Shown in pieces: positions 4,305 through 12,614 of a stretch of DNA of 64,000 nt. The stretch comes from Escherichia coli (GTDB lineage: Bacteria; Pseudomonadota; Gammaproteobacteria; Enterobacterales; Enterobacteriaceae): assembly GCF_024223415.1 (NCBI RefSeq), contig NZ_CP100500.1. One strand, 5' to 3'. The translations under genes and the position numbers were made by a program. Below the pieces are notes generated by a model. That model had not been told where the DNA came from. It saw only the letters and a program-made list of their open reading frames with translations, and ran no database searches. How positions within the stretch are numbered: the first letter of the stretch is position 1; the number at the start of each line of letters is the position of its first letter.

Positions 4305-4895
4305 TTAATCATCCTGGTGAGGGAAAAGCGTGTTATCGATCAGATCGCACAGGCAATTTACCGTCAGCATATGCATTTCCTGAATGCGAGCACTGCGATG
4401 CGAAGGGATGCGGATCTCCACATCCTGTGGCCCTAACAAACCTGCAAGTTCACCGCCGTCATAGCCGGTCAATGCCACAATGGTCATATCACGCGTAACG
4501 GCAGCTTCTACTGCTTTTACAATATCGCGGCTGTTGCCACGGGTGGAAATGGCTAACAATACATCTCCCGCATGACCCAGCGCCCGCACCTGTTTTGCAT
4601 ACACTTCATCATGTAAGCGATCGTTGGCAATCGCCGTTAAGACAACATTATCGGTATTTAGTGCAATGGCAGGTAAGCTGGGCCGCTCCGTTTCGAAACG
4701 GTTGATCATGCTGGCAGCAAAATGCTGTGCATTGGCAGCGGAAGTTCCATTACCACAACAGAGGATTTTGTTGCCATTGAGCAGAGACTGAACCAGCGTC
4801 ATGGCCGCACGGGAGATGGCATCCGGAAGCGCCTCTGCCGCCGCAATTTGAGTTTGAATGCTTTCAGTGAAGCAAGCTTTAATTCTTTCTTGCAC
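4305..4895 (-). CDS. diaA: DnaA initiator-associating protein DiaA (SIS domain)
   Basis: 196-aa [19 protein letters not shown]…, synteny. Confidence 0.9.
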
Positions 4896-4914: not shown

Positions 4915-5310
4915 TTATGAGTGGTCATTAAAGGCATCCTTAATCCACTCAACCTCATTCCCGGTGAAGGCTACCACATCGAACCGGCAATCCACAGTAT
5001 CAAAACTCCCATTATGACGCGCGAGCCACAAGCGGGCAGTCTGTAATAATTTGTGTTGTTTGCTGCGGGTCACACTGGCTGCCGCGCCGCCATAAAGCGC
5101 AGAACGGCGGTAACGCACCTCGACAAAAACGGTGGTCCGGCCTTCACGCATTATCAGATCGATCTCGCCGCCACGCTCGTTCACGTTAGCGGCGACAAAT
5201 CGCAGTCCTTTGCCTTCCAGCCAGCGACGCGCTTGTGCTTCCCACGCATCGCCGGTCTGTTTGGTGGTTAACTGGCGGGGACTACCTGACCTTGTTGGTA
5301 CTGTAGCCAT
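4915..5310 (-). CDS. yraN: UPF0102 protein YraN
   Basis: 131-aa ORF; start overlaps lpoA 3' end. Confidence 0.85.
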
Positions 5311-7304
5311 GATAACTTCCTGTTAATCACGCAATCCGGGTTAGCCGTCAGGCTTCCGGTATTACCGTTGATTTCAAAACCCTGAACCTGGCGCATTTGT
5401 GAGAAATGATTTGCCAGCGACCAGGCATCAACGCCCACCGCATACATGCGAGCCAGTGAATAATCGTTATTCACCGCGCTGAGTGCCTGCTGCATTAACG
5501 GCAGATTACCGCCCGCCAGCATCGGGATTTCGCTGTACTGCAAACCTTCCATCTCCAGACGGAAATCCGGGCCTGCGGTGCCTTGTGCGCTGCGGGAGCT
5601 GGCGTACAGCGTTGCACCGCTCTGGCTACCGTTACGCATGGCGATCATCGGTTTGATAAAAGCGATTTCACCCGGCGTTGCCACAATGTACACCGCATCG
5701 ACACGACCGCCATTATTGGTGAATTGGTCATCGGTTGGCGTGGTTTGCAGCGTTGGATTGTTGGTCGTCATGCCGGAGTCGGTTGTCGCTCTGAGAGTAA
5801 TCGGGCTACCCGTTAAAGCGATACCAGAACCGCCGTTAACACCCGCGCGTAATTCGCTGGTGGAACCAAATTTTTGTTGCAGAACGGTGCCGCCGCCCAG
5901 TTTCTGCCACTCTTGCGCAAACGCATTGGCTACGCGATCGCCCAATGAACTGCGTGGGATCAGCACCAGCGGCGCTTGTTTACCCTGGTCACGAATATGA
6001 CGCGCTGCATCGCGCGCTTCGTCTTCCGGTGAAAGCGCGAAGTAACAAATATTGACGCGATTTTCGATATTCTCCGGCTGGTTCAGTGCCAGTACGTTCA
6101 GCGGAGTGTTGCTCTTCAGCAACTCTTCAACGTTATTTTTCAGCAACGGACCGACCACAATACTCGCGCCATCCTGCTGAACCTGGCTTAAGATCTGGCT
6201 AAGTGGTTGTGATGAGGTATCGTAGATTTTCAGCTCTGCGGATGGATTTGCGGGTGCGCTTACCGCTGCGGTGCTTGTCGCCGGGGCGCTTACAGGCACC
6301 GGCTGGGCTGCAGGCTGTTCACCGGTCAGATCGCTAACCGAGGCTTGTGCCGGGCTGGCAACGCCATCCACGGTTTGCGGTTGAGGTTGTTCTGCAACGT
6401 CTGCGGCAGGTGCGGCAGCTACCTGAGCTGCCACTGGCTGAGTGCCGATATTTTTCGCCGCTTCAAAGCCTTGCTGAATAGTGCGACCAAATACCGCTGC
6501 CTGGCCATTCAGTGGCAACAGCAGGGCGATTTTGTTGGTCGAGGCTGGTTTAAACGCTTTTACGTTAACCAACTGCGTTGGCAGCATTTTCGCGCCCGGG
6601 TTGTTCGGATAACGTTTCTGCCAGTCGGCGATCCCGGCTTTCATCATGTCGGGATCGTTACGGTTATCAAACCAGACGCGCTGCAGATCCAGCCAGCCTT
6701 GCAGAATATTTTCGTCGGCGTTGATCACCAGCGTATTCGCCTGTTCCTGAGTCATGGAGGAGAGCGCCTGCCAGGTGGCATCAATATTCTGCTGTTTTTC
6801 TTTCGCGCCAAGCAGCGGTTCCTGAGCAATTAACGCGCGCAGTAAATCAATGGAAGGACGCCCCTGGCTGGCATCGATTTTTGCCCGCCAGTAACGGACT
6901 TGCTGGTTTTGTTCTAAATCGGCGGGTGTAATTTTCGCCAGCAAGTTTTGCGCGCCAGCAAAATCTTTCTGCGCCAGTTTAATCTCTACCGCCAGCAGTG
7001 TTTTCTCGCGGCGCTGAGAATCATTCAGTTCTTGCGGTAGTTGGTTAAACAACTCAACCGCCTGCCCGGTTTTACCTTCTTTCACCAGTGCACGAATGGC
7101 GAGTAATTGCCAGTTGATCCTGGTATCATCAGAGCTTTGCTGCATCTGCTGAAGATAAAAGGCAGAATCAGCCTGCGCCGTGCCCTGCATATAAGCAGTG
7201 GACTGATCGGGAGTATGGGTGCCACAACCGGCGAAAATCAGGGCTGCCAGAACAACAGGTAGACAACGCGCGGCTTTCAAACGAGAAAATGTTGAGGGTA
7301 CCAT
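5268..7304 (-). CDS. lpoA: Penicillin-binding protein 1A activator lipoprotein LpoA
   Basis: ORF 5268..7334; start at [28 protein letters not shown] (lipobox) gives ~678 aa; TPR-like N-domain, Pro/Ala-rich linker. Confidence 0.9.
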
Positions 7305-7368: not shown

Positions 7369-8229
7369 ATGAAACAACACCAATCGGCGGATAATTCTCA
7401 GGGCCAGCTTTACATTGTACCGACGCCAATCGGCAATCTGGCGGATATCACCCAGCGTGCGTTAGAGGTATTACAGGCCGTTGATCTGATTGCCGCCGAG
7501 GATACTCGTCACACCGGTTTATTGCTGCAACATTTTGGGATTAATGCCCGGTTGTTTGCGCTGCACGACCATAACGAACAACAAAAAGCCGAAACGCTGC
7601 TGGCGAAGCTGCAAGAGGGGCAAAACATTGCACTGGTTTCCGATGCCGGAACGCCGCTAATTAACGATCCTGGCTACCATCTGGTGCGTACCTGCCGTGA
7701 AGCGGGGATTCGTGTGGTGCCGCTACCCGGACCGTGTGCTGCTATCACTGCGTTAAGCGCCGCGGGTTTACCCTCTGACCGTTTCTGTTACGAAGGCTTT
7801 TTACCTGCCAAATCAAAAGGCCGCCGTGATGCGCTAAAAGCCATTGAAGCGGAGCCGCGCACGCTGATTTTTTATGAATCTACCCACCGTCTGTTAGATA
7901 GCCTGGAAGATATCGTTGCGGTATTAGGCGAATCCCGCTACGTGGTTCTGGCACGTGAGCTGACCAAAACCTGGGAAACCATTCACGGCGCGCCCGTTGG
8001 CGAGCTGCTGGCGTGGGTAAAAGAAGATGAAAACCGTCGCAAAGGCGAAATGGTGCTGATTGTCGAAGGTCATAAAGCACAGGAAGAAGACTTACCCGCC
8101 GATGCCCTGCGCACGCTGGCGCTGTTGCAGGCAGAACTGCCGCTGAAAAAAGCGGCGGCGCTGGCAGCAGAAATTCACGGCGTGAAGAAAAATGCGCTAT
8201 ATAAGTATGCGCTGGAGCAGCAGGGGTAA
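7369..8229 (+). CDS. rsmI: 16S rRNA (cytidine1402-2'-O)-methyltransferase RsmI
   Basis: 286-aa ORF …[15 protein letters not shown]…, divergent from lpoA. Confidence 0.9.
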
Positions 8230-8271: not shown

Positions 8272-9363
8272 TTACCGCACGATGACGGTAATGGTGGCTG
8301 TGCCCTGAAATTTTCCTGTTTCCAGCTCACCACCGACCAGATTAACTGGCCAGGCGCGCATATTGACGGTGCCATGCCCGGAAGGATCAACGGGAAGGAT
8401 ACCGTTCTGAAAAGGAATATTTGCAACTCCGCCGCCGAGATTTTCAATACGAATACCGACATCGGGCGCATTGTCTGAACTTCTTCGTCTGGCGACCAGG
8501 TTGTACTGGTCTACTACCCCAGTTGTACCGTCGATGCGCATTTGCAACGAGTTTTTAATCTTTGAAGTATCACCACAGTCATAAGTGATATCAAAGTCTA
8601 CTGGAGTAAAACCATCTGGCATGGCATTGCGGGTGGTAAACTTCTGACCATTGATGAATCCAAAATTAACCTTAATAACATCGCCCTGATTAATTTTGCA
8701 CGACTGTGGGGCGGTGAGATTTCCCTGAATCGATAACTTGACTAAATCATGGAAGTCACCTGTAGACGGGCTTCCCATTCCATCGACCCACGCGCCTTTA
8801 ATGACGGCAATATCCGTTTTCGGAATGGTCATCGAGCCGAGAAATGGCTTGGTGACATACAGGGTAAAGGTGGTATTTGCACCAATATTAACGGGTCCAT
8901 AACGAGACGTGTCACCCTGGCAAACACCCGTTTGGGTTGCAGCAGAATATACGGTGCTGCTTTTTATCTGTGTGAATCGGGTGTTAACAGAGACAACCTG
9001 GTCGGTTGTGAGTCCTGGAATGTCGTTTGCCTGTAATGTGGTTTTAATATCCAGGCTGTCATTGAGTTTGTAATATCCTGTCTGATGTCCAGTGGTGGTA
9101 AGTACGGGGCTGACCATATAGACAAGTTTAACTGCCTTACCCGCAGAGCAGGAACAGGCGTATTGCCAGTTAGTGCTACTTAGCGTTGCAGAGGTAAACT
9201 CCCGTCCTGTCACGTTATCTGTCTGGTTCACCGTAACATCATCAACCACACTGCTGTAATTTGTCGCACCGCTAGTGCTGTCGGCTCCACACCCTCCTGA
9301 GGAGGCATAAGCGCAGGATGTGGATATCAACAAAAGTCCTGTCATAAGAGGCGCTCTTTTCAT
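8272..9363 (-). CDS. yraK: Fimbrial adhesin-like protein of yra chaperone-usher operon
   Basis: ORF 8272..9621; signal-peptide start MKRAPLMTGLLLISTSCAYA at 9363 gives 363 aa; last gene after usher. Confidence 0.85.
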   Translation of the reverse strand: MKRAPLMTGLLLISTSCAYASSGGCGADSTSGATNYSSVVDDVTVNQTDNVTGREFTSATLSSTNWQYACSCSAGKAVKLVYMVSPVLTTTGHQTGYYKLNDSLDIKTTLQANDIPGLTTDQVVSVNTRFTQIKSSTVYSAATQTGVCQGDTSRYGPVNIGANTTFTLYVTKPFLGSMTIPKTDIAVIKGAWVDGMGSPSTGDFHDLVKLSIQGNLTAPQSCKINQGDVIKVNFGFINGQKFTTRNAMPDGFTPVDFDITYDCGDTSKIKNSLQMRIDGTTGVVDQYNLVARRRSSDNAPDVGIRIENLGGGVANIPFQNGILPVDPSGHGTVNMRAWPVNLVGGELETGKFQGTATITVIVR

Positions 9364-9373
9364 TTTTTTATCC

Positions 9374-11890
9374 TTAATGGCACTGCGCCGTGCCTTGTAA
9401 TACAGAGGTTGTTGGTTCTGAATCCGGTGTACTAAAAGCAAACTGACATTGTTGATCAGCCTGATTTCCCCAGCGTACAGTCCAGCTTTGTGATTTACTC
9501 GATATCCCAGAGAGATATAGTATGCCGCCCTCATCGACGATACTTTGTTGCCCCGTCTCATCGTTGCTGGCAAGAGCGCCAAAGGGCAACGGTTTACCGT
9601 TGCGATCGCTGACTGTAACAAGTACGCGATAACCGATATTGGCGTTGAAACGCGCCGCTACCATTGCACCTCTATTGGGCACCACAAACTGTGTTGTTTG
9701 TTCAAGATCGACGTTATCGGGCAGCTGCGTAGTATCTACCGAGAGACGGTTTTCCTGATAAGTTGTGAGATAAGGAACCACTGCATAGCCAAAGGGATCG
9801 GTAGCAATCCCCGGATAGTTTTGTATCCTCACGCCAGATGCCCCGTTAGCATCGATAAGCGCAAAAGCGTTGCCCAGATATTGCGAGAGCGTCACGCCAT
9901 GAGGATGGATAACCACGCCGCCGGTAACGCCGTAATTGTATTGGCTGCTGTCATTACCGTAACTGTATCCGGCACTGAAGGTTCCATAAGGTGAACGGTA
10001 ACTGGCGTTCAGGCTACTGTTATGGTTGTTATCGTCATCCAGACTTTGTTCCAGGCTATAGCTCAGGCGACCATCATCCAGCAGTGAGCCATCAAGACGC
10101 ATTTCATGTTGGGTTGGGCGATCTTTCTGGCTGGTCATCTGATAGGAAACCCGGCTACGCGGTAACCAGCGTTCTAACGGAATACTGAGATTCAAAGAGA
10201 GTGCGCGGTCATTATTTTGATCAGTGTAGCGGCTGTATTGATAATTCAGGCTGTAACCAATTCCCCATTGCTGGCCGGAAACCCCAACAGAGATATTCCT
10301 GTTTTTCTCGTTATTGCCCCAATAGTCTTGCTGCGAACCGGAGGCATACAGACTTACCCCATCAAATATTGTCTGGCTGATGTTGAATTGAATTTCACTT
10401 TTTTGGCGACTGTTATAGTCCCAATTGCGGGTATTGGCTTCATCAAAACTAAAATAGCCATCGTTGGTATAGCGATAGTAGCTGACAGCGATATTGGTGT
10501 TGGTTTCCGGGATATCTTTGATGTACTGCGTACGCCATTGATAGCCATGAAAAGAGTGCTGGTTATCGAATTGGGTGTCAGCTCTGTTGATATCCATCGA
10601 CAACGCGCCCAGTGCGCCAAGTGTGCCGCCGATACCGATCCCCAGCGCATAATAATCTTCAGAACCGAGCAGGCCGCCATACAGCGTAAAAGTATTATTC
10701 AAACCATATATTGCCGTGGCTTCAGCAAATTCGGGTTCCTTGCTATCACTGTTTGCATCAGCGCGATAGCGTCCAGCGGTCGCGCTATACTTTAGATGCC
10801 CAGGTCGCTGCATCATGGGTAATGAAGAATAAGGCTGGATAAAGCGACGTTGTGTACCGTCACTTTCTTCAATCGTGACTTCTAAATCGCCGCTGTTGGA
10901 AGAGGGGTAGAGATCGTTAATTTCAAAGGCACCCGCTGGCACGTTGCTTTGATAGATCACATAACCATTTTGCCTGATAGTCACGATTGCACTACTGTTT
11001 GCGATACCGCGTACCGTTGGGGCAAATCCGCGCTGGCTGTTTGGCAACATATTATCGTCGGAAGCGAGTTGCACGCCAGTAAAGGTGTAGCTGGAAAAAA
11101 TACTGCCGCTGGTGGCGCTTTCTCCCAGAAGCAACTGAGACTTCAACGCCTTGATATCACGTTGTAAATAACTACTGATAGTGTTCCAGCTTGACGCCTG
11201 ATCGTTGCGTGTCCACGTAGAATAGTTACGTAATCGCCAGGGGCCAAAATTGGCACCATTTTGCATATTTAGGTACTGTCGTTGGCTACGATTGCCCTGG
11301 CGGTAACGGTTATCAGAACCTGTAAACGAGTAGTTGGTAAACAGCGTTGGTATACCATCGTCCCAACGAGAAGGGGAGACGTAACCTCTTGCATCACGGT
11401 ACAGTGCAATTTGGGGAATGCTCAAATTAAGTCGCTGATGATTGAAATCAAATTCAGCAGCTGTACCGGGAATGATTTGTTCAAGCGAGTTGATCACGCT
11501 ATCGTCATCTTTTTCAGCCAGCGCCGGGATTTCATCCACCTTAATACCCAGCTCACGTAGTTGTTCTACCGTAAACTGTGGCTGCAGAAGTTGCTCTGCA
11601 TTGGCGGTAAATGTAATTTTTTTCTGTGAAACCTTCTTTTTATTCAGCCAGATATCAACCTGATAAGTTCCTGGTAGTTGTGCGTATTTTTTTGAAAAAC
11701 GTGACAGATCGGTTGTTTGCATACCACTTTTTGTGGTTTCCAGCATAATGGGGTCGAAATAATACTCTTCGGCGTTAGCGGTAGTGCAAAGCATGCCGCT
11801 GCCAGTGAGCACCATCGGCAAACAGCGTTTGATAATGAGCGCCAACTGTTTCGGTGTGCGTTTATGTCCCTGGTGGTGTCGTTGTGGCAT
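9374..11890 (-). CDS. yraJ: Fimbrial outer-membrane usher protein
   Basis: ORF 9374..11965; start MPQRHHQGH… gives 838 aa; typical usher size and position. Confidence 0.88.
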   Translation of the reverse strand: MPQRHHQGHKRTPKQLALIIKRCLPMVLTGSGMLCTTANAEEYYFDPIMLETTKSGMQTTDLSRFSKKYAQLPGTYQVDIWLNKKKVSQKKITFTANAEQLLQPQFTVEQLRELGIKVDEIPALAEKDDDSVINSLEQIIPGTAAEFDFNHQRLNLSIPQIALYRDARGYVSPSRWDDGIPTLFTNYSFTGSDNRYRQGNRSQRQYLNMQNGANFGPWRLRNYSTWTRNDQASSWNTISSYLQRDIKALKSQLLLGESATSGSIFSSYTFTGVQLASDDNMLPNSQRGFAPTVRGIANSSAIVTIRQNGYVIYQSNVPAGAFEINDLYPSSNSGDLEVTIEESDGTQRRFIQPYSSLPMMQRPGHLKYSATAGRYRADANSDSKEPEFAEATAIYGLNNTFTLYGGLLGSEDYYALGIGIGGTLGALGALSMDINRADTQFDNQHSFHGYQWRTQYIKDIPETNTNIAVSYYRYTNDGYFSFDEANTRNWDYNSRQKSEIQFNISQTIFDGVSLYASGSQQDYWGNNEKNRNISVGVSGQQWGIGYSLNYQYSRYTDQNNDRALSLNLSIPLERWLPRSRVSYQMTSQKDRPTQHEMRLDGSLLDDGRLSYSLEQSLDDDNNHNSSLNASYRSPYGTFSAGYSYGNDSSQYNYGVTGGVVIHPHGVTLSQYLGNAFALIDANGASGVRIQNYPGIATDPFGYAVVPYLTTYQENRLSVDTTQLPDNVDLEQTTQFVVPNRGAMVAARFNANIGYRVLVTVSDRNGKPLPFGALASNDETGQQSIVDEGGILYLSGISSKSQSWTVRWGNQADQQCQFAFSTPDSEPTTSVLQGTAQCH

Positions 11891-11918
11891 TCCCTGATGA
11901 CCTGTGTTTTTATATTTG

Positions 11919-12614
11919 TTATTGCAGTGGACGAGTTTCTGTCCCGGAACTGCCGCCATAATCATTGATCGCAGCCCATTTCACGTTCTTTCCGCCAGAT
12001 GCTGGAAGTGGTAACTGTTTATGTTCTCCGGGCGCGATATATTCAATTTTGCTTGTGAGATCGGCTTTATCGACTGCCAGTCCGGCAAATACGACGTAAT
12101 ATTCAGTTGGGTTATATATATTGAGTGAATGATCACTACGTTTAAATTCCAGTGATTTCCACGCATCGCTTACCCGTCCCTTCAGGTGTGCGGGGCGATA
12201 AAACATTTTGATCCGTGTTTTAAATACCAGCGTCAACTCGTTAGCATTAACATCATCTGATTTTTTCTTTGCTGGAATGGCACGAACATTAATGTAGAAC
12301 AGCGACTCTTTATTTTCAGGCAGGTTATCAGCTGTTTTAATAATTCGCAGTGATGAATCATCGCCAGCTTCAAGACGAAATAGCGGTGGGGTTATAATAA
12401 ATGGGGCACGGCTTGTACCATCTATATTATCTACCCATGATTGCAGTAAATAAGGCGTTTCTGCGCCTTTGTTTGCGACAGGTAACGCAGCCTCTTTGCG
12501 GCTGGCATCATAGATCACTCGCGTTCGCTGTAAAACGATACCCCCTGCAAGCGCCTGGCCGATACAGAAGCTACACAACAAGGTTATTATCACCGCGAAT
12601 GTTCGTTTTGACAT
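11919..12614 (-). CDS. yraI: Periplasmic fimbrial chaperone (PapD-like)
   Basis: 231-aa ORF with signal peptide, between major subunit and usher. Confidence 0.88.

What the first reader, a model, noticed from the sequence alone, without database searches (positions are those of the whole stretch)
6224..6434. Pro/Ala/Gln-rich low-complexity linker in LpoA
The residues encoded here (…[68 protein letters not shown]…) form a disordered-looking segment between the N-terminal TPR-like domain and the C-terminal domain. Such linkers vary in length between strains and can confound alignment.
Basis: seen in the sequence. Interest (0 to 1): 0.15.

Follow-up and report, generated by a model that had tools for sequence, protein, structure and literature searches.

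The report
Known disordered loop inside E. coli LpoA
This is the already published flexible "Region 1" loop of the E. coli cell-wall synthesis activator LpoA; it is real, but it sits inside the C-terminal domain rather than between the two domains, and in this window it has the standard length and the K-12 amino-acid sequence, so it is ordinary.

Summary
Window 6224-6434 on the minus strand encodes LpoA residues 291-360, an Ala/Pro/Val/Gln/Ser-rich stretch with the lowest sequence complexity in the protein.

The stretch is not the interdomain linker. It is a lineage-specific insertion in the loop between helix alpha1 and strand beta2 of the C-terminal periplasmic-binding-protein-like domain, 34 residues past the domain boundary. 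It matches "Region 1" (N285-P351) of Jean et al. 2014, which NMR showed to be flexible and whose function is unknown. The true linker is K249-K258 and is rigid.

Here the segment is identical in amino acids to K-12 and has the standard length. The whole lpoA allele is 100% identical to six complete genomes.

Length variation within E. coli is very rare. All 99 sampled full-length matches were ungapped, and only 1 of 5,426 complete genomes carries a 10-residue duplication. A few deletion alleles occur as near-singletons in the protein database.

Between genera the loop carries almost all LpoA length variation: about 10 residues in most of the family, 72 in Escherichia, 96-124 in Enterobacter. 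It evolves about 10-20 times faster than the folded core but keeps a semi-conserved island, [14 protein letters not shown].

Verdict: already known, low interest.

The parts
5268..7304 (-). lpoA (yraM) coding sequence, 678 aa plus stop. Outer-membrane lipoprotein activator of PBP1A.
   Evidence: Translation; Pfam LppC at 448 bits; RefSeq annotation of identical or near-identical genes; 100% identical over 2037 nt to six complete E. coli genomes.
7224..7304 (-). Signal peptide and lipobox (residues 1-27, ...LIFAG-C27).
   Evidence: Read directly from the sequence. C27 is at least 90% conserved across 125 homologues. The AF2 model has helix 3-26.
6537..7223 (-). N-terminal all-helical TPR-like domain (residues 28-256).
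   Evidence: Solved E. coli structures 2MHK (query 27-256) and 6DR3 (query 31-252), E 1e-140 to 1e-146; Foldseek TM 0.90 to 6DR3.
6531..6560 (-). True interdomain linker K249-K258, short and rigid.
   Evidence: Defined by Jean et al. 2014, Fig. 2D legend (PMC4111904). The AF2 model has pLDDT above 90 here, with helix 243-249 followed by strand 258-263.
6435..6536 (-). First beta-alpha unit of the C-terminal domain (residues 257-290: beta1 258-263, alpha1 270-286). It separates the domain boundary from the low-complexity segment.
   Evidence: AF2 secondary structure; aligned to H. influenzae LpoA chain residues up to 259; constant length of 28 residues for positions 257-284 in nearly all of 106 family representatives.
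6237..6446 (-). Disordered low-complexity insertion (residues 287-356), corresponding to published Region 1 (N285-P351, window 6252-6452). The finding (6224-6434) lies within and just beyond it.
   Evidence: No secondary structure at 287-356 and pLDDT below 50 at 304-343; absent from H. influenzae LpoA; NMR flexibility reported in PMC4111904; composition statistics.
6321..6371 (-). Semi-conserved island inside the insertion (residues 312-328, [17 protein letters not shown]).
   Evidence: Among 7 E. coli alleles the only change in 312-328 is V312A in two alleles; 313-328 is invariant. Mean column conservation is 0.76 against 0.44 and 0.56 for the flanking parts across 30 Enterobacteriaceae representatives. 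Recognisable as VVSPSAAETSDLT in Enterobacter and VVSPSAASVDNLT in a 63%-identical relative.
6252..6293 (-). Imperfect 10-residue repeat [14 protein letters not shown] (residues 338-351). This is the site of the only length polymorphism seen in complete E. coli genomes.
   Evidence: Strain AST85 has VSAPAASTAA duplicated in tandem, giving a 688-aa LpoA. It is the only one of 5,426 genomes matching the duplication as a single piece.
5712..5828 (-). Second flexible insertion of the C-domain (Region 2, S493-N531).
   Evidence: PMC4111904; pLDDT below 50 at 510-523; a gap in the H. influenzae alignment between query 472 and 530.

Best explanation
The segment encodes the known intrinsically disordered 'Region 1' of E. 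coli LpoA. It is an insertion of about 65-70 residues in the surface loop between helix alpha1 and strand beta2 of the first lobe of the C-terminal domain, which has a type-1 periplasmic-binding-protein fold.

Shown here: its position, its predicted disorder, its absence from most LpoA homologues, its fast evolution, and the fact that it is the length-variable spot of the protein between genera.

Inferred: it is an accessory, largely tolerated expansion loop. It is not part of the conserved machinery by which the C-domain activates the peptidoglycan synthase PBP1A. It is kept under weak selection, mainly for composition (soluble, acidic, free of hydrophobic and basic residues). It grows and shrinks by replication slippage or microhomology events in its Ala/Pro/Gln-rich tracts. 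It cannot act as an interdomain spacer, because both of its ends are anchored within one folded lobe.
For: Position: H. influenzae LpoA (5KCN) aligns to query 37-291 and then 351-472 with contiguous chain numbering. The AF2 model places beta1 at 258-263 and alpha1 at 270-286 before the segment and beta2 at 357-362 after it. Overall model pLDDT is 86.6, against 31-44 inside the segment. The model matches full-length H. influenzae LpoA (E 2e-42) and LivJ/LivK-type binding proteins.

Literature: Region 1 N285-P351 is flexible by NMR, the linker K249-K258 is rigid, and the function is unknown (PMC4111904; PMC4632607).

Accessory nature: in 106 representatives at 50% identity the equivalent loop has a median of 10 residues, and 87 of 106 have fewer than 20. 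In the, 25 set (mostly Enterobacteriaceae), every other segment of the protein keeps a nearly fixed length while this one runs from 63 to 143 residues.

Weak constraint: among 7 E. coli alleles dN is 0.042 against 0.002 for the C-domain core, and dN/dS is 0.17 against 0.017.

Indel mechanics: there is a 10-aa tandem duplication at the VSAP...VSAP repeat in strain AST85. Deletion allele P0008 joins two AAQ motifs. Enterobacter alleles carry AAQP, PAPAPA and AQAQAQ micro-repeats, and many of their loop lengths differ by 4 residues.

Tolerance of loss: rare in-frame deletion alleles remove most of the loop in E. coli (P0006 lacks 292-325, P0008 lacks 292-331) and in Salmonella (P0064).
Against: dN/dS is still well below 1. 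Length is almost invariant across 5,424 E. coli genomes. A 13-16-residue island is conserved across several genera. The loop is therefore not evolving as pure junk, and some function cannot be excluded. The deletion alleles are singletons or near-singletons (cluster sizes 1-2) that could be assembly errors, and PBP1B/LpoB redundancy could mask any defect. No experiment on a Region 1 deletion was found in the searchable literature. The dN/dS figures rest on only 7 sequences.
Confidence: 0.8

Rival explanations
1. The loop is a functional flexible tether that displays a short linear motif ([14 protein letters not shown], residues 314-327). The motif would dock onto a partner such as PBP1A, another envelope protein or peptidoglycan, or fold on binding. 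The variable Ala/Pro/Gln arms would set its reach.
For: The island is more conserved than its flanks (0.76 against 0.44 and 0.56). It is invariant at 313-328 in 7 E. coli alleles while 15 positions elsewhere in the loop vary. It is recognisable in Citrobacter, Salmonella, Enterobacter and Lelliottia and in relatives of 57-63% identity. Island dN is 0.013 against 0.062 in the variable arms. Jean et al. speculate that the flexible regions may fold on forming new protein interactions.
Against: AF2 gives no structure or confidence to the island (pLDDT 31-44). More distant LpoA proteins that carry an insertion at this site lack the motif. Natural in-frame deletion alleles in E. coli and Salmonella remove it. 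The conservation sample is dominated by closely related Citrobacter sequences. No partner is known.
Confidence: 0.15
2. The loop is a steric or entropic 'bristle' that enlarges the hydrodynamic size of the C-domain. It would tune how easily LpoA passes through pores in the peptidoglycan mesh to reach PBP1A, under the molecular-ruler idea for Lpo proteins.
For: Composition rather than sequence is conserved, and the loop is acidic with no hydrophobic or basic residues. Length is fixed within a species but differs between genera. The literature describes LpoA as having to reach through the peptidoglycan layer (PMC4111904; PMC8824477).
Against: This is inference only; no result here bears on pore passage. 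Most LpoA-bearing bacteria manage with a 10-residue loop.
Confidence: 0.05
3. One reading: the segment is the flexible linker that joins the N-terminal TPR-like domain to the C-terminal domain.
For: It is disordered and lies in the middle third of the protein.
Against: Thirty-four well-folded, highly conserved residues of the C-domain (257-290, pLDDT 83-98) lie between the N-domain and the segment. The published linker is K249-K258 and is rigid. H. influenzae LpoA has both domains without this segment.
Confidence: 0.01
4. The GC-rich stretch reflects something other than LpoA coding sequence: an antisense gene (the plus-strand ORF at 6345-6833), an RNA element or an assembly artefact.
For: A 162-aa ORF lies on the opposite strand.
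Against: The antisense ORF has no Pfam match even at E of 1 or below. No Rfam family matches here. Substitutions among strains behave as codon-constrained in the lpoA frame, with dN/dS 0.17. The same sequence is present in 5,424 of 5,426 complete genomes.
Confidence: 0.01

Closest known systems
E. coli K-12 LpoA (YraM) 'Region 1', residues N285-P351 (Jean et al. 2014, Structure 22:1047; PMC4111904)
   Same: Same gene, same position, same length. The amino-acid sequence is identical over residues 291-358. The segment is flexible by NMR in the paper and unstructured in the AF2 model here.
   Different: Nothing within the segment differs. Elsewhere this allele differs from K-12 at six residues: A96S, A136V, Q140R, M623V, N663K and V677A.
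Haemophilus influenzae LpoA (PDB 5KCN, 5VAT, 5VBG, 3CKM)
   Same: The same two-domain architecture and fold: Foldseek E 2e-42 with target-normalised TM 0.72-0.80, and sequence E 1e-82.
   Different: It lacks the insertion. Its alpha1-beta2 loop is only a few residues long (chain positions 259 and 252 overlap at the junction). It also lacks most of Region 2.
Enterobacter / Lelliottia LpoA
   Same: An insertion at the same site with the same A/P/Q/T-rich character and a recognisable VVSPSAAETSDLT island.
   Different: The loop is 96-124 residues long, carries micro-repeats (AAQP, PAPAPA, AQAQAQ) and varies in length between strains.
Disordered N-terminal linker of LpoB and other outer-membrane lipoproteins
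   Same: A disordered, low-complexity periplasmic segment in a PBP activator. My own knowledge, plus mentions in PMC4632607 and bioRxiv 10.1101/2021.01.05.425367.
   Different: Those are true tethers between the lipid anchor and a globular domain, and they provide reach. The LpoA segment is a closed loop anchored at both ends within one domain. LpoA spans the periplasm through its rigid elongated shape.

Membership tests
LpoA / LppC family (Pfam PF04348) | Significant match to the family profile across the protein | tested here: met
   448.3 bits against a gathering cutoff of 28.8, in two stretches split by the insertion; the best stretch is residues 350-672.
LpoA / LppC family (Pfam PF04348) | Outer-membrane lipoprotein signal: signal peptide with a lipobox cysteine | tested here: met
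   The sequence reads ...AALIFAG-C27. C27 is at least 90% conserved in 125 homologues. Actual lipidation and sorting were not tested.
LpoA / LppC family (Pfam PF04348) | N-terminal TPR-like helical domain followed by a C-terminal type-1 periplasmic-binding-protein fold | tested here: met
   PDB sequence hits 2MHK, 6DR3, 5KCN and 3CKM. The AF2 model (pLDDT 86.6, pTM 0.81) matches 5VAT/5KCN and LivJ/LivK-type proteins.
LpoA / LppC family (Pfam PF04348) | Conserved chromosomal context rsmI - lpoA - yraN - diaA in E. coli | tested here: met
   The window ORFs at 7369-8229 (+), 5268-7304 (-), 4915-5310 (-) and 4305-4895 (-) have the same order as the RefSeq annotations.
LpoA / LppC family (Pfam PF04348) | Binds PBP1A and stimulates it | not testable with these tools
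   Known for K-12 LpoA from the literature. This allele differs from it at 6 of 678 residues.
E. coli LpoA Region 1 (published flexible insertion) | Lies within the C-domain at about 285-351 and is absent from H. influenzae LpoA | tested here: met
   The alignment to 5KCN breaks at query 291 and resumes at 351. The family-wide median loop length is 10 residues.
E. coli LpoA Region 1 (published flexible insertion) | Intrinsically disordered | tested here: met
   Prediction only: pLDDT below 50 at 304-343 and no secondary structure at 287-356, plus a compositional bias typical of disorder. The experimental NMR evidence is in PMC4111904.
Interdomain linker | Connects the end of one folded domain directly to the start of the next | tested here: not met
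   Both flanks (257-290 and 357 onward) belong to the same C-terminal lobe. The true linker is K249-K258.
Variable-number tandem-repeat linker (strain-variable length) | Tandem repeat units in the DNA and length polymorphism among strains of the species | tested here: not met
   Tandem Repeats Finder found nothing. In two evenly spaced samples of the 5,424 hits, 99 of 100 listed rows were ungapped over their aligned span. The exception, AST85, is the only complete genome with the 30-nt duplication. The feature is met instead in Enterobacter LpoA.

The most novel reading that the evidence does not exclude
The semi-conserved island [14 protein letters not shown] (residues 314-327) within the otherwise fast-evolving disordered loop is a short linear motif specific to Enterobacteriaceae. 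It would recruit an unidentified envelope partner, or contact PBP1A or peptidoglycan, giving Region 1 the function that the 2014 structural work left open.
Probability: 0.15. Interest if true: 0.4.

Novelty: already known. Interest (0 to 1): 0.08.

Why it matters
It matters little for discovery. The segment is a published feature of a well-studied protein, and this copy is the standard one.

The practical value is corrective:
- Annotators and aligners should treat residues ~287-356 as an insertion inside the C-domain, not as the domain boundary.
- They should expect LpoA length differences between enterobacterial genera to sit almost entirely in this loop.
- The loop probably explains why no structure of the E. 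coli C-domain has been solved. The review says so, and no such structure appears.

The one open biological point is the function of Region 1, still described as unknown in the literature found here. The conserved island and the natural deletion and duplication alleles noted here would be sensible starting points for testing it.

Tried and rejected
- Tandem repeats: Tandem Repeats Finder at minimum score 30 found none in the gene. The repeat finder gave only two-copy 11-15-nt families and weak inverted repeats at chance level (one search was a parameter error). The segment is compositional low complexity, not a repeat array.
- RNA element: an Rfam gathering scan of the whole window found only RNase P RNA at 32417-32793, and nothing in lpoA.
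- Antisense gene: the 162-aa plus-strand ORF at 6345-6833 has no Pfam match at E of 1 or below. I judge it a shadow ORF of the GC-rich Ala/Pro codons.
- Internal promoter or terminator: consensus scans were at or near shuffle expectation and placed nothing in the segment.
- NCBIfam returned no family for LpoA, which was unhelpful. Naming rests on Pfam, PDB and RefSeq annotation.
- Literature: four searches for a function or deletion analysis of Region 1 found only statements that the function is unknown. PMC8824477 mentions LpoA only in general terms.
- Large deletions in complete genomes: all 5,424 matching genomes have one place covering at least 80% of both a 411-nt and a 231-nt query. This indicates no deletion longer than about 15 residues. 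It is not a full per-genome length census.
- Deletion alleles in the protein database are not confined to this loop. Several hit folded regions (missing 161-185, 395-434 or 202-277). I therefore did not treat them as strong evidence of natural length polymorphism, since some are probably assembly or pseudogene artefacts.

Full report
**1. What is at the coordinates**

Read on the minus strand, window 6224-6434 translates in frame 1 to [70 protein letters not shown].

It is residues 291-360 of a 678-aa protein encoded at window 5268-7304 on the minus strand. The listed ORF starts at an upstream TTG, but RefSeq genes start at the ATG at 7304.

The protein is LpoA:
- Pfam LppC (PF04348) scores 448 bits.
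- The solved E. coli LpoA N-domain structures match at E of about 1e-140.
- RefSeq annotates the matching gene as lpoA in 5,424 of 5,426 complete E. coli genomes.
- The neighbours rsmI, yraN and diaA are in the expected order.

**2. Is the low complexity real?**

Yes. Residues 291-358 are 29% Ala, 15% Pro, 13% Val, 10% Gln and 10% Ser. They lack all of C, F, H, I, K, M, R, W and Y, and carry a net charge of -6.

Their entropy is 3.01 bits against a protein mean of 3.76 bits. The lowest-entropy windows in the whole protein all start at residues 287-291. None of 100,000 random 68-mers drawn from the protein's own composition was as simple.

It is not a DNA tandem repeat.

**3. Where it sits in the protein**

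- The E. coli N-domain structures end at residues 252-256.
- An AlphaFold2 model built on a 125-sequence alignment (mean pLDDT 86.6, pTM 0.81) places a strand at 258-263 and a helix at 270-286. It shows no secondary structure from 287 to 356, with pLDDT below 50 at 304-343. The next strand is at 357-362.
- The model matches full-length H. influenzae LpoA (E 2e-42) and LivJ/LivK-type periplasmic binding proteins.
- In the sequence alignment, H. influenzae LpoA covers query 37-291 and resumes at query 351 with contiguous chain numbering.

The segment is therefore an insertion in the alpha1-beta2 loop of the first lobe of the C-terminal domain, 34 folded residues past the domain boundary.

This is what Jean et al. 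(Structure 2014, PMC4111904) described. [quoted passage not shown] Both are flexible by NMR and of unknown function. The true interdomain linker is K249-K258 and is rather rigid. A 2015 review repeats that the two flexible regions have unknown function and presumably prevent crystallisation. Consistently, the PDB holds no E. coli LpoA C-domain.

**4. Variation within E. coli**

The window's whole lpoA allele is 100% identical over 2037 nt to six complete genomes, including SCU-316, NCTC10444, NCTC9112 and KV7.

I compared it with six alleles spread across the identity range: K-12, O157, O104:H4, 83972, ECO2947 and N96.
- All are 678 aa.
- The window is identical in amino acids to K-12 over residues 291-358.
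- Amino-acid substitutions among strains concentrate in the loop, with up to 8 of 19 differences falling in 10% of the protein.
- Mean pairwise dN is 0.042 in the loop against 0.002 in the C-domain core. dN/dS is 0.17 against 0.017 (only 7 sequences).

Length is almost fixed.
- In two evenly spaced samples of the 5,424 hits, 99 of 100 rows were ungapped over their aligned span, and 91 of them spanned the whole query.
- Every genome has one place covering at least 80% of both queries.
- The exception was the weakest hit, strain AST85. It has a 688-aa LpoA with a tandem duplication of VSAPAASTAA at the imperfect VSAP...VSAP repeat.
- A query spanning that duplication matched as a single piece only in AST85. 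Its 16 nearest relatives lack the duplication.

The large protein database holds a few E. coli deletion alleles, each a cluster of one or two sequences, alongside a cluster of 10,877 sequences (678-aa representative). Several remove part of this loop (missing 292-325, 292-331, 300-302, 269-345 or 294-373). Others hit folded regions, so some are probably artefacts.

**5. Variation between taxa**

Among the 120 closest protein clusters, which are mostly Enterobacteriaceae, I split the protein into six segments. Five keep essentially constant lengths (256, 28, 116, 57 and 149 residues). The segment equivalent to residues 285-356 runs as follows:
- 72 residues in E. coli and E. albertii
- 63 in a divergent Escherichia-like sequence
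- 70-81 in Citrobacter and Salmonella
- 96-124 in Enterobacter, Lelliottia and Pseudescherichia
- 143 in one sequence

Enterobacter alleles contain AAQP, PAPAPA and AQAQAQ micro-repeats, and many of their loop lengths differ by 4 residues. Strain-level length variation does occur there.

Across 106 full-length family representatives at 50% identity, the equivalent loop has a median of 10 residues. In 87 of 106 it is under 20 residues. Long insertions occur only in the relatives closest to E. coli.

The insertion is therefore a lineage-specific expansion, and it is the length-variable hot spot of the protein.

**6. A detail inside the loop**

The loop is not uniformly variable. Residues 312-328 ([17 protein letters not shown]) form a semi-conserved island.
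- Among the 7 E. coli alleles there are no changes at residues 313-328.
- Mean conservation is 0.76 against 0.44 and 0.56 for the flanking arms across 30 Enterobacteriaceae representatives.
- Recognisable versions occur in Enterobacter (VVSPSAAETSDLT) and in relatives of 57-63% identity.

Against its importance:
- More distant LpoA proteins with insertions lack it.
- AF2 gives it no structure.
- Natural deletion alleles remove it.

**7. Mechanism**

Shown: the position, the predicted disorder, the lineage restriction, the fast evolution and the indel behaviour.

From established knowledge: LpoA's C-domain binds PBP1A and stimulates it, and the protein spans the periplasm as a rigid elongated molecule.

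Inferred: most LpoA proteins work with a 10-residue loop here, and both ends of the insertion are anchored in one lobe. The segment therefore cannot be an interdomain spacer and is unlikely to be part of the core activation mechanism. I judge it an accessory, tolerated disordered loop under weak, mostly compositional selection, changing length by slippage or microhomology events (confidence about 0.8).

The main rival is that the island is a docking motif on a flexible tether (about 0.15). A steric role in passage through peptidoglycan pores is pure speculation (about 0.05). Readings as an interdomain linker, an antisense gene or an RNA element are rejected.

**8. Verdict**

It is a known feature, published in 2014. 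Novelty: already known. Interest: low.

Noticed in passing
L007 1753-1812 (E. coli AST85, NZ_AP043644.1); equivalent to window 6252-6293: One complete E. coli genome has a 688-aa LpoA caused by a 30-nt tandem duplication (VSAPAASTAA twice) inside Region 1. It is the only one of 5,426 genomes with this duplication; its 16 closest allele relatives lack it.
   Followed up: yes
Proteins P0069-P0120 (Enterobacter, Lelliottia, Pseudescherichia LpoA): In these genera the same loop is 96-124 residues long. Many alleles differ by 4 residues, and the loop carries AAQP, PAPAPA and AQAQAQ micro-repeats, so strain-level length variation does occur there, unlike in E. coli.
   Followed up: partly
window 6321-6371 (-), LpoA residues 312-328: A semi-conserved island, [17 protein letters not shown], lies inside the otherwise fast-evolving disordered loop. 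Residues 313-328 are invariant in 7 E. coli alleles, and the island is recognisable in relatives down to about 57-63% identity. It could be a short linear motif; its function is unknown.
   Followed up: partly
window 5712-5828 (-), LpoA residues 493-531: The second flexible insertion (Region 2) also has low AF2 confidence (residues 510-523). A recurrent 16-residue deletion allele (missing 508-523) appears in two separate rare E. coli protein clusters, P0003 and P0011.
   Followed up: no
window 5268-7304 (-): Among the seven alleles compared, the window's LpoA is alone in carrying S96, V136, R140 and V623; the six others all have A136, Q140 and M623. The same allele is 100% identical in six complete genomes (SCU-316, O78 strain 3, GPEC1446, NCTC10444, NCTC9112, KV7).
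   Followed up: partly
E. coli genome collection: Two of 5,426 complete E. coli genomes gave no megablast match to lpoA. One genome has a second copy located on a plasmid.
   Followed up: no
window 5268-5310: The 3' end of lpoA overlaps the start of yraN (4915-5310, minus strand) by 43 nt, as in the RefSeq annotations. This suggests translational coupling.
   Followed up: no
window 32417-32793 (+): The RNase P RNA gene (rnpB; Rfam RF00010, 318.6 bits, full length) is the only Rfam family found in the 64-kb window.
   Followed up: no
window 5271-7304 (-): NCBIfam release 20 has no HMM that matches LpoA at E of 0.01 or below, although PGAP names the protein. The name presumably comes from another rule type.
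   Followed up: no
window 8272-9621 (-) and 9374-11965 (-): ORFs next to rsmI look like the fimbrial adhesin and usher genes of the yra fimbrial operon. This rests on my memory of the K-12 gene order and on sequence appearance only.
   Followed up: no
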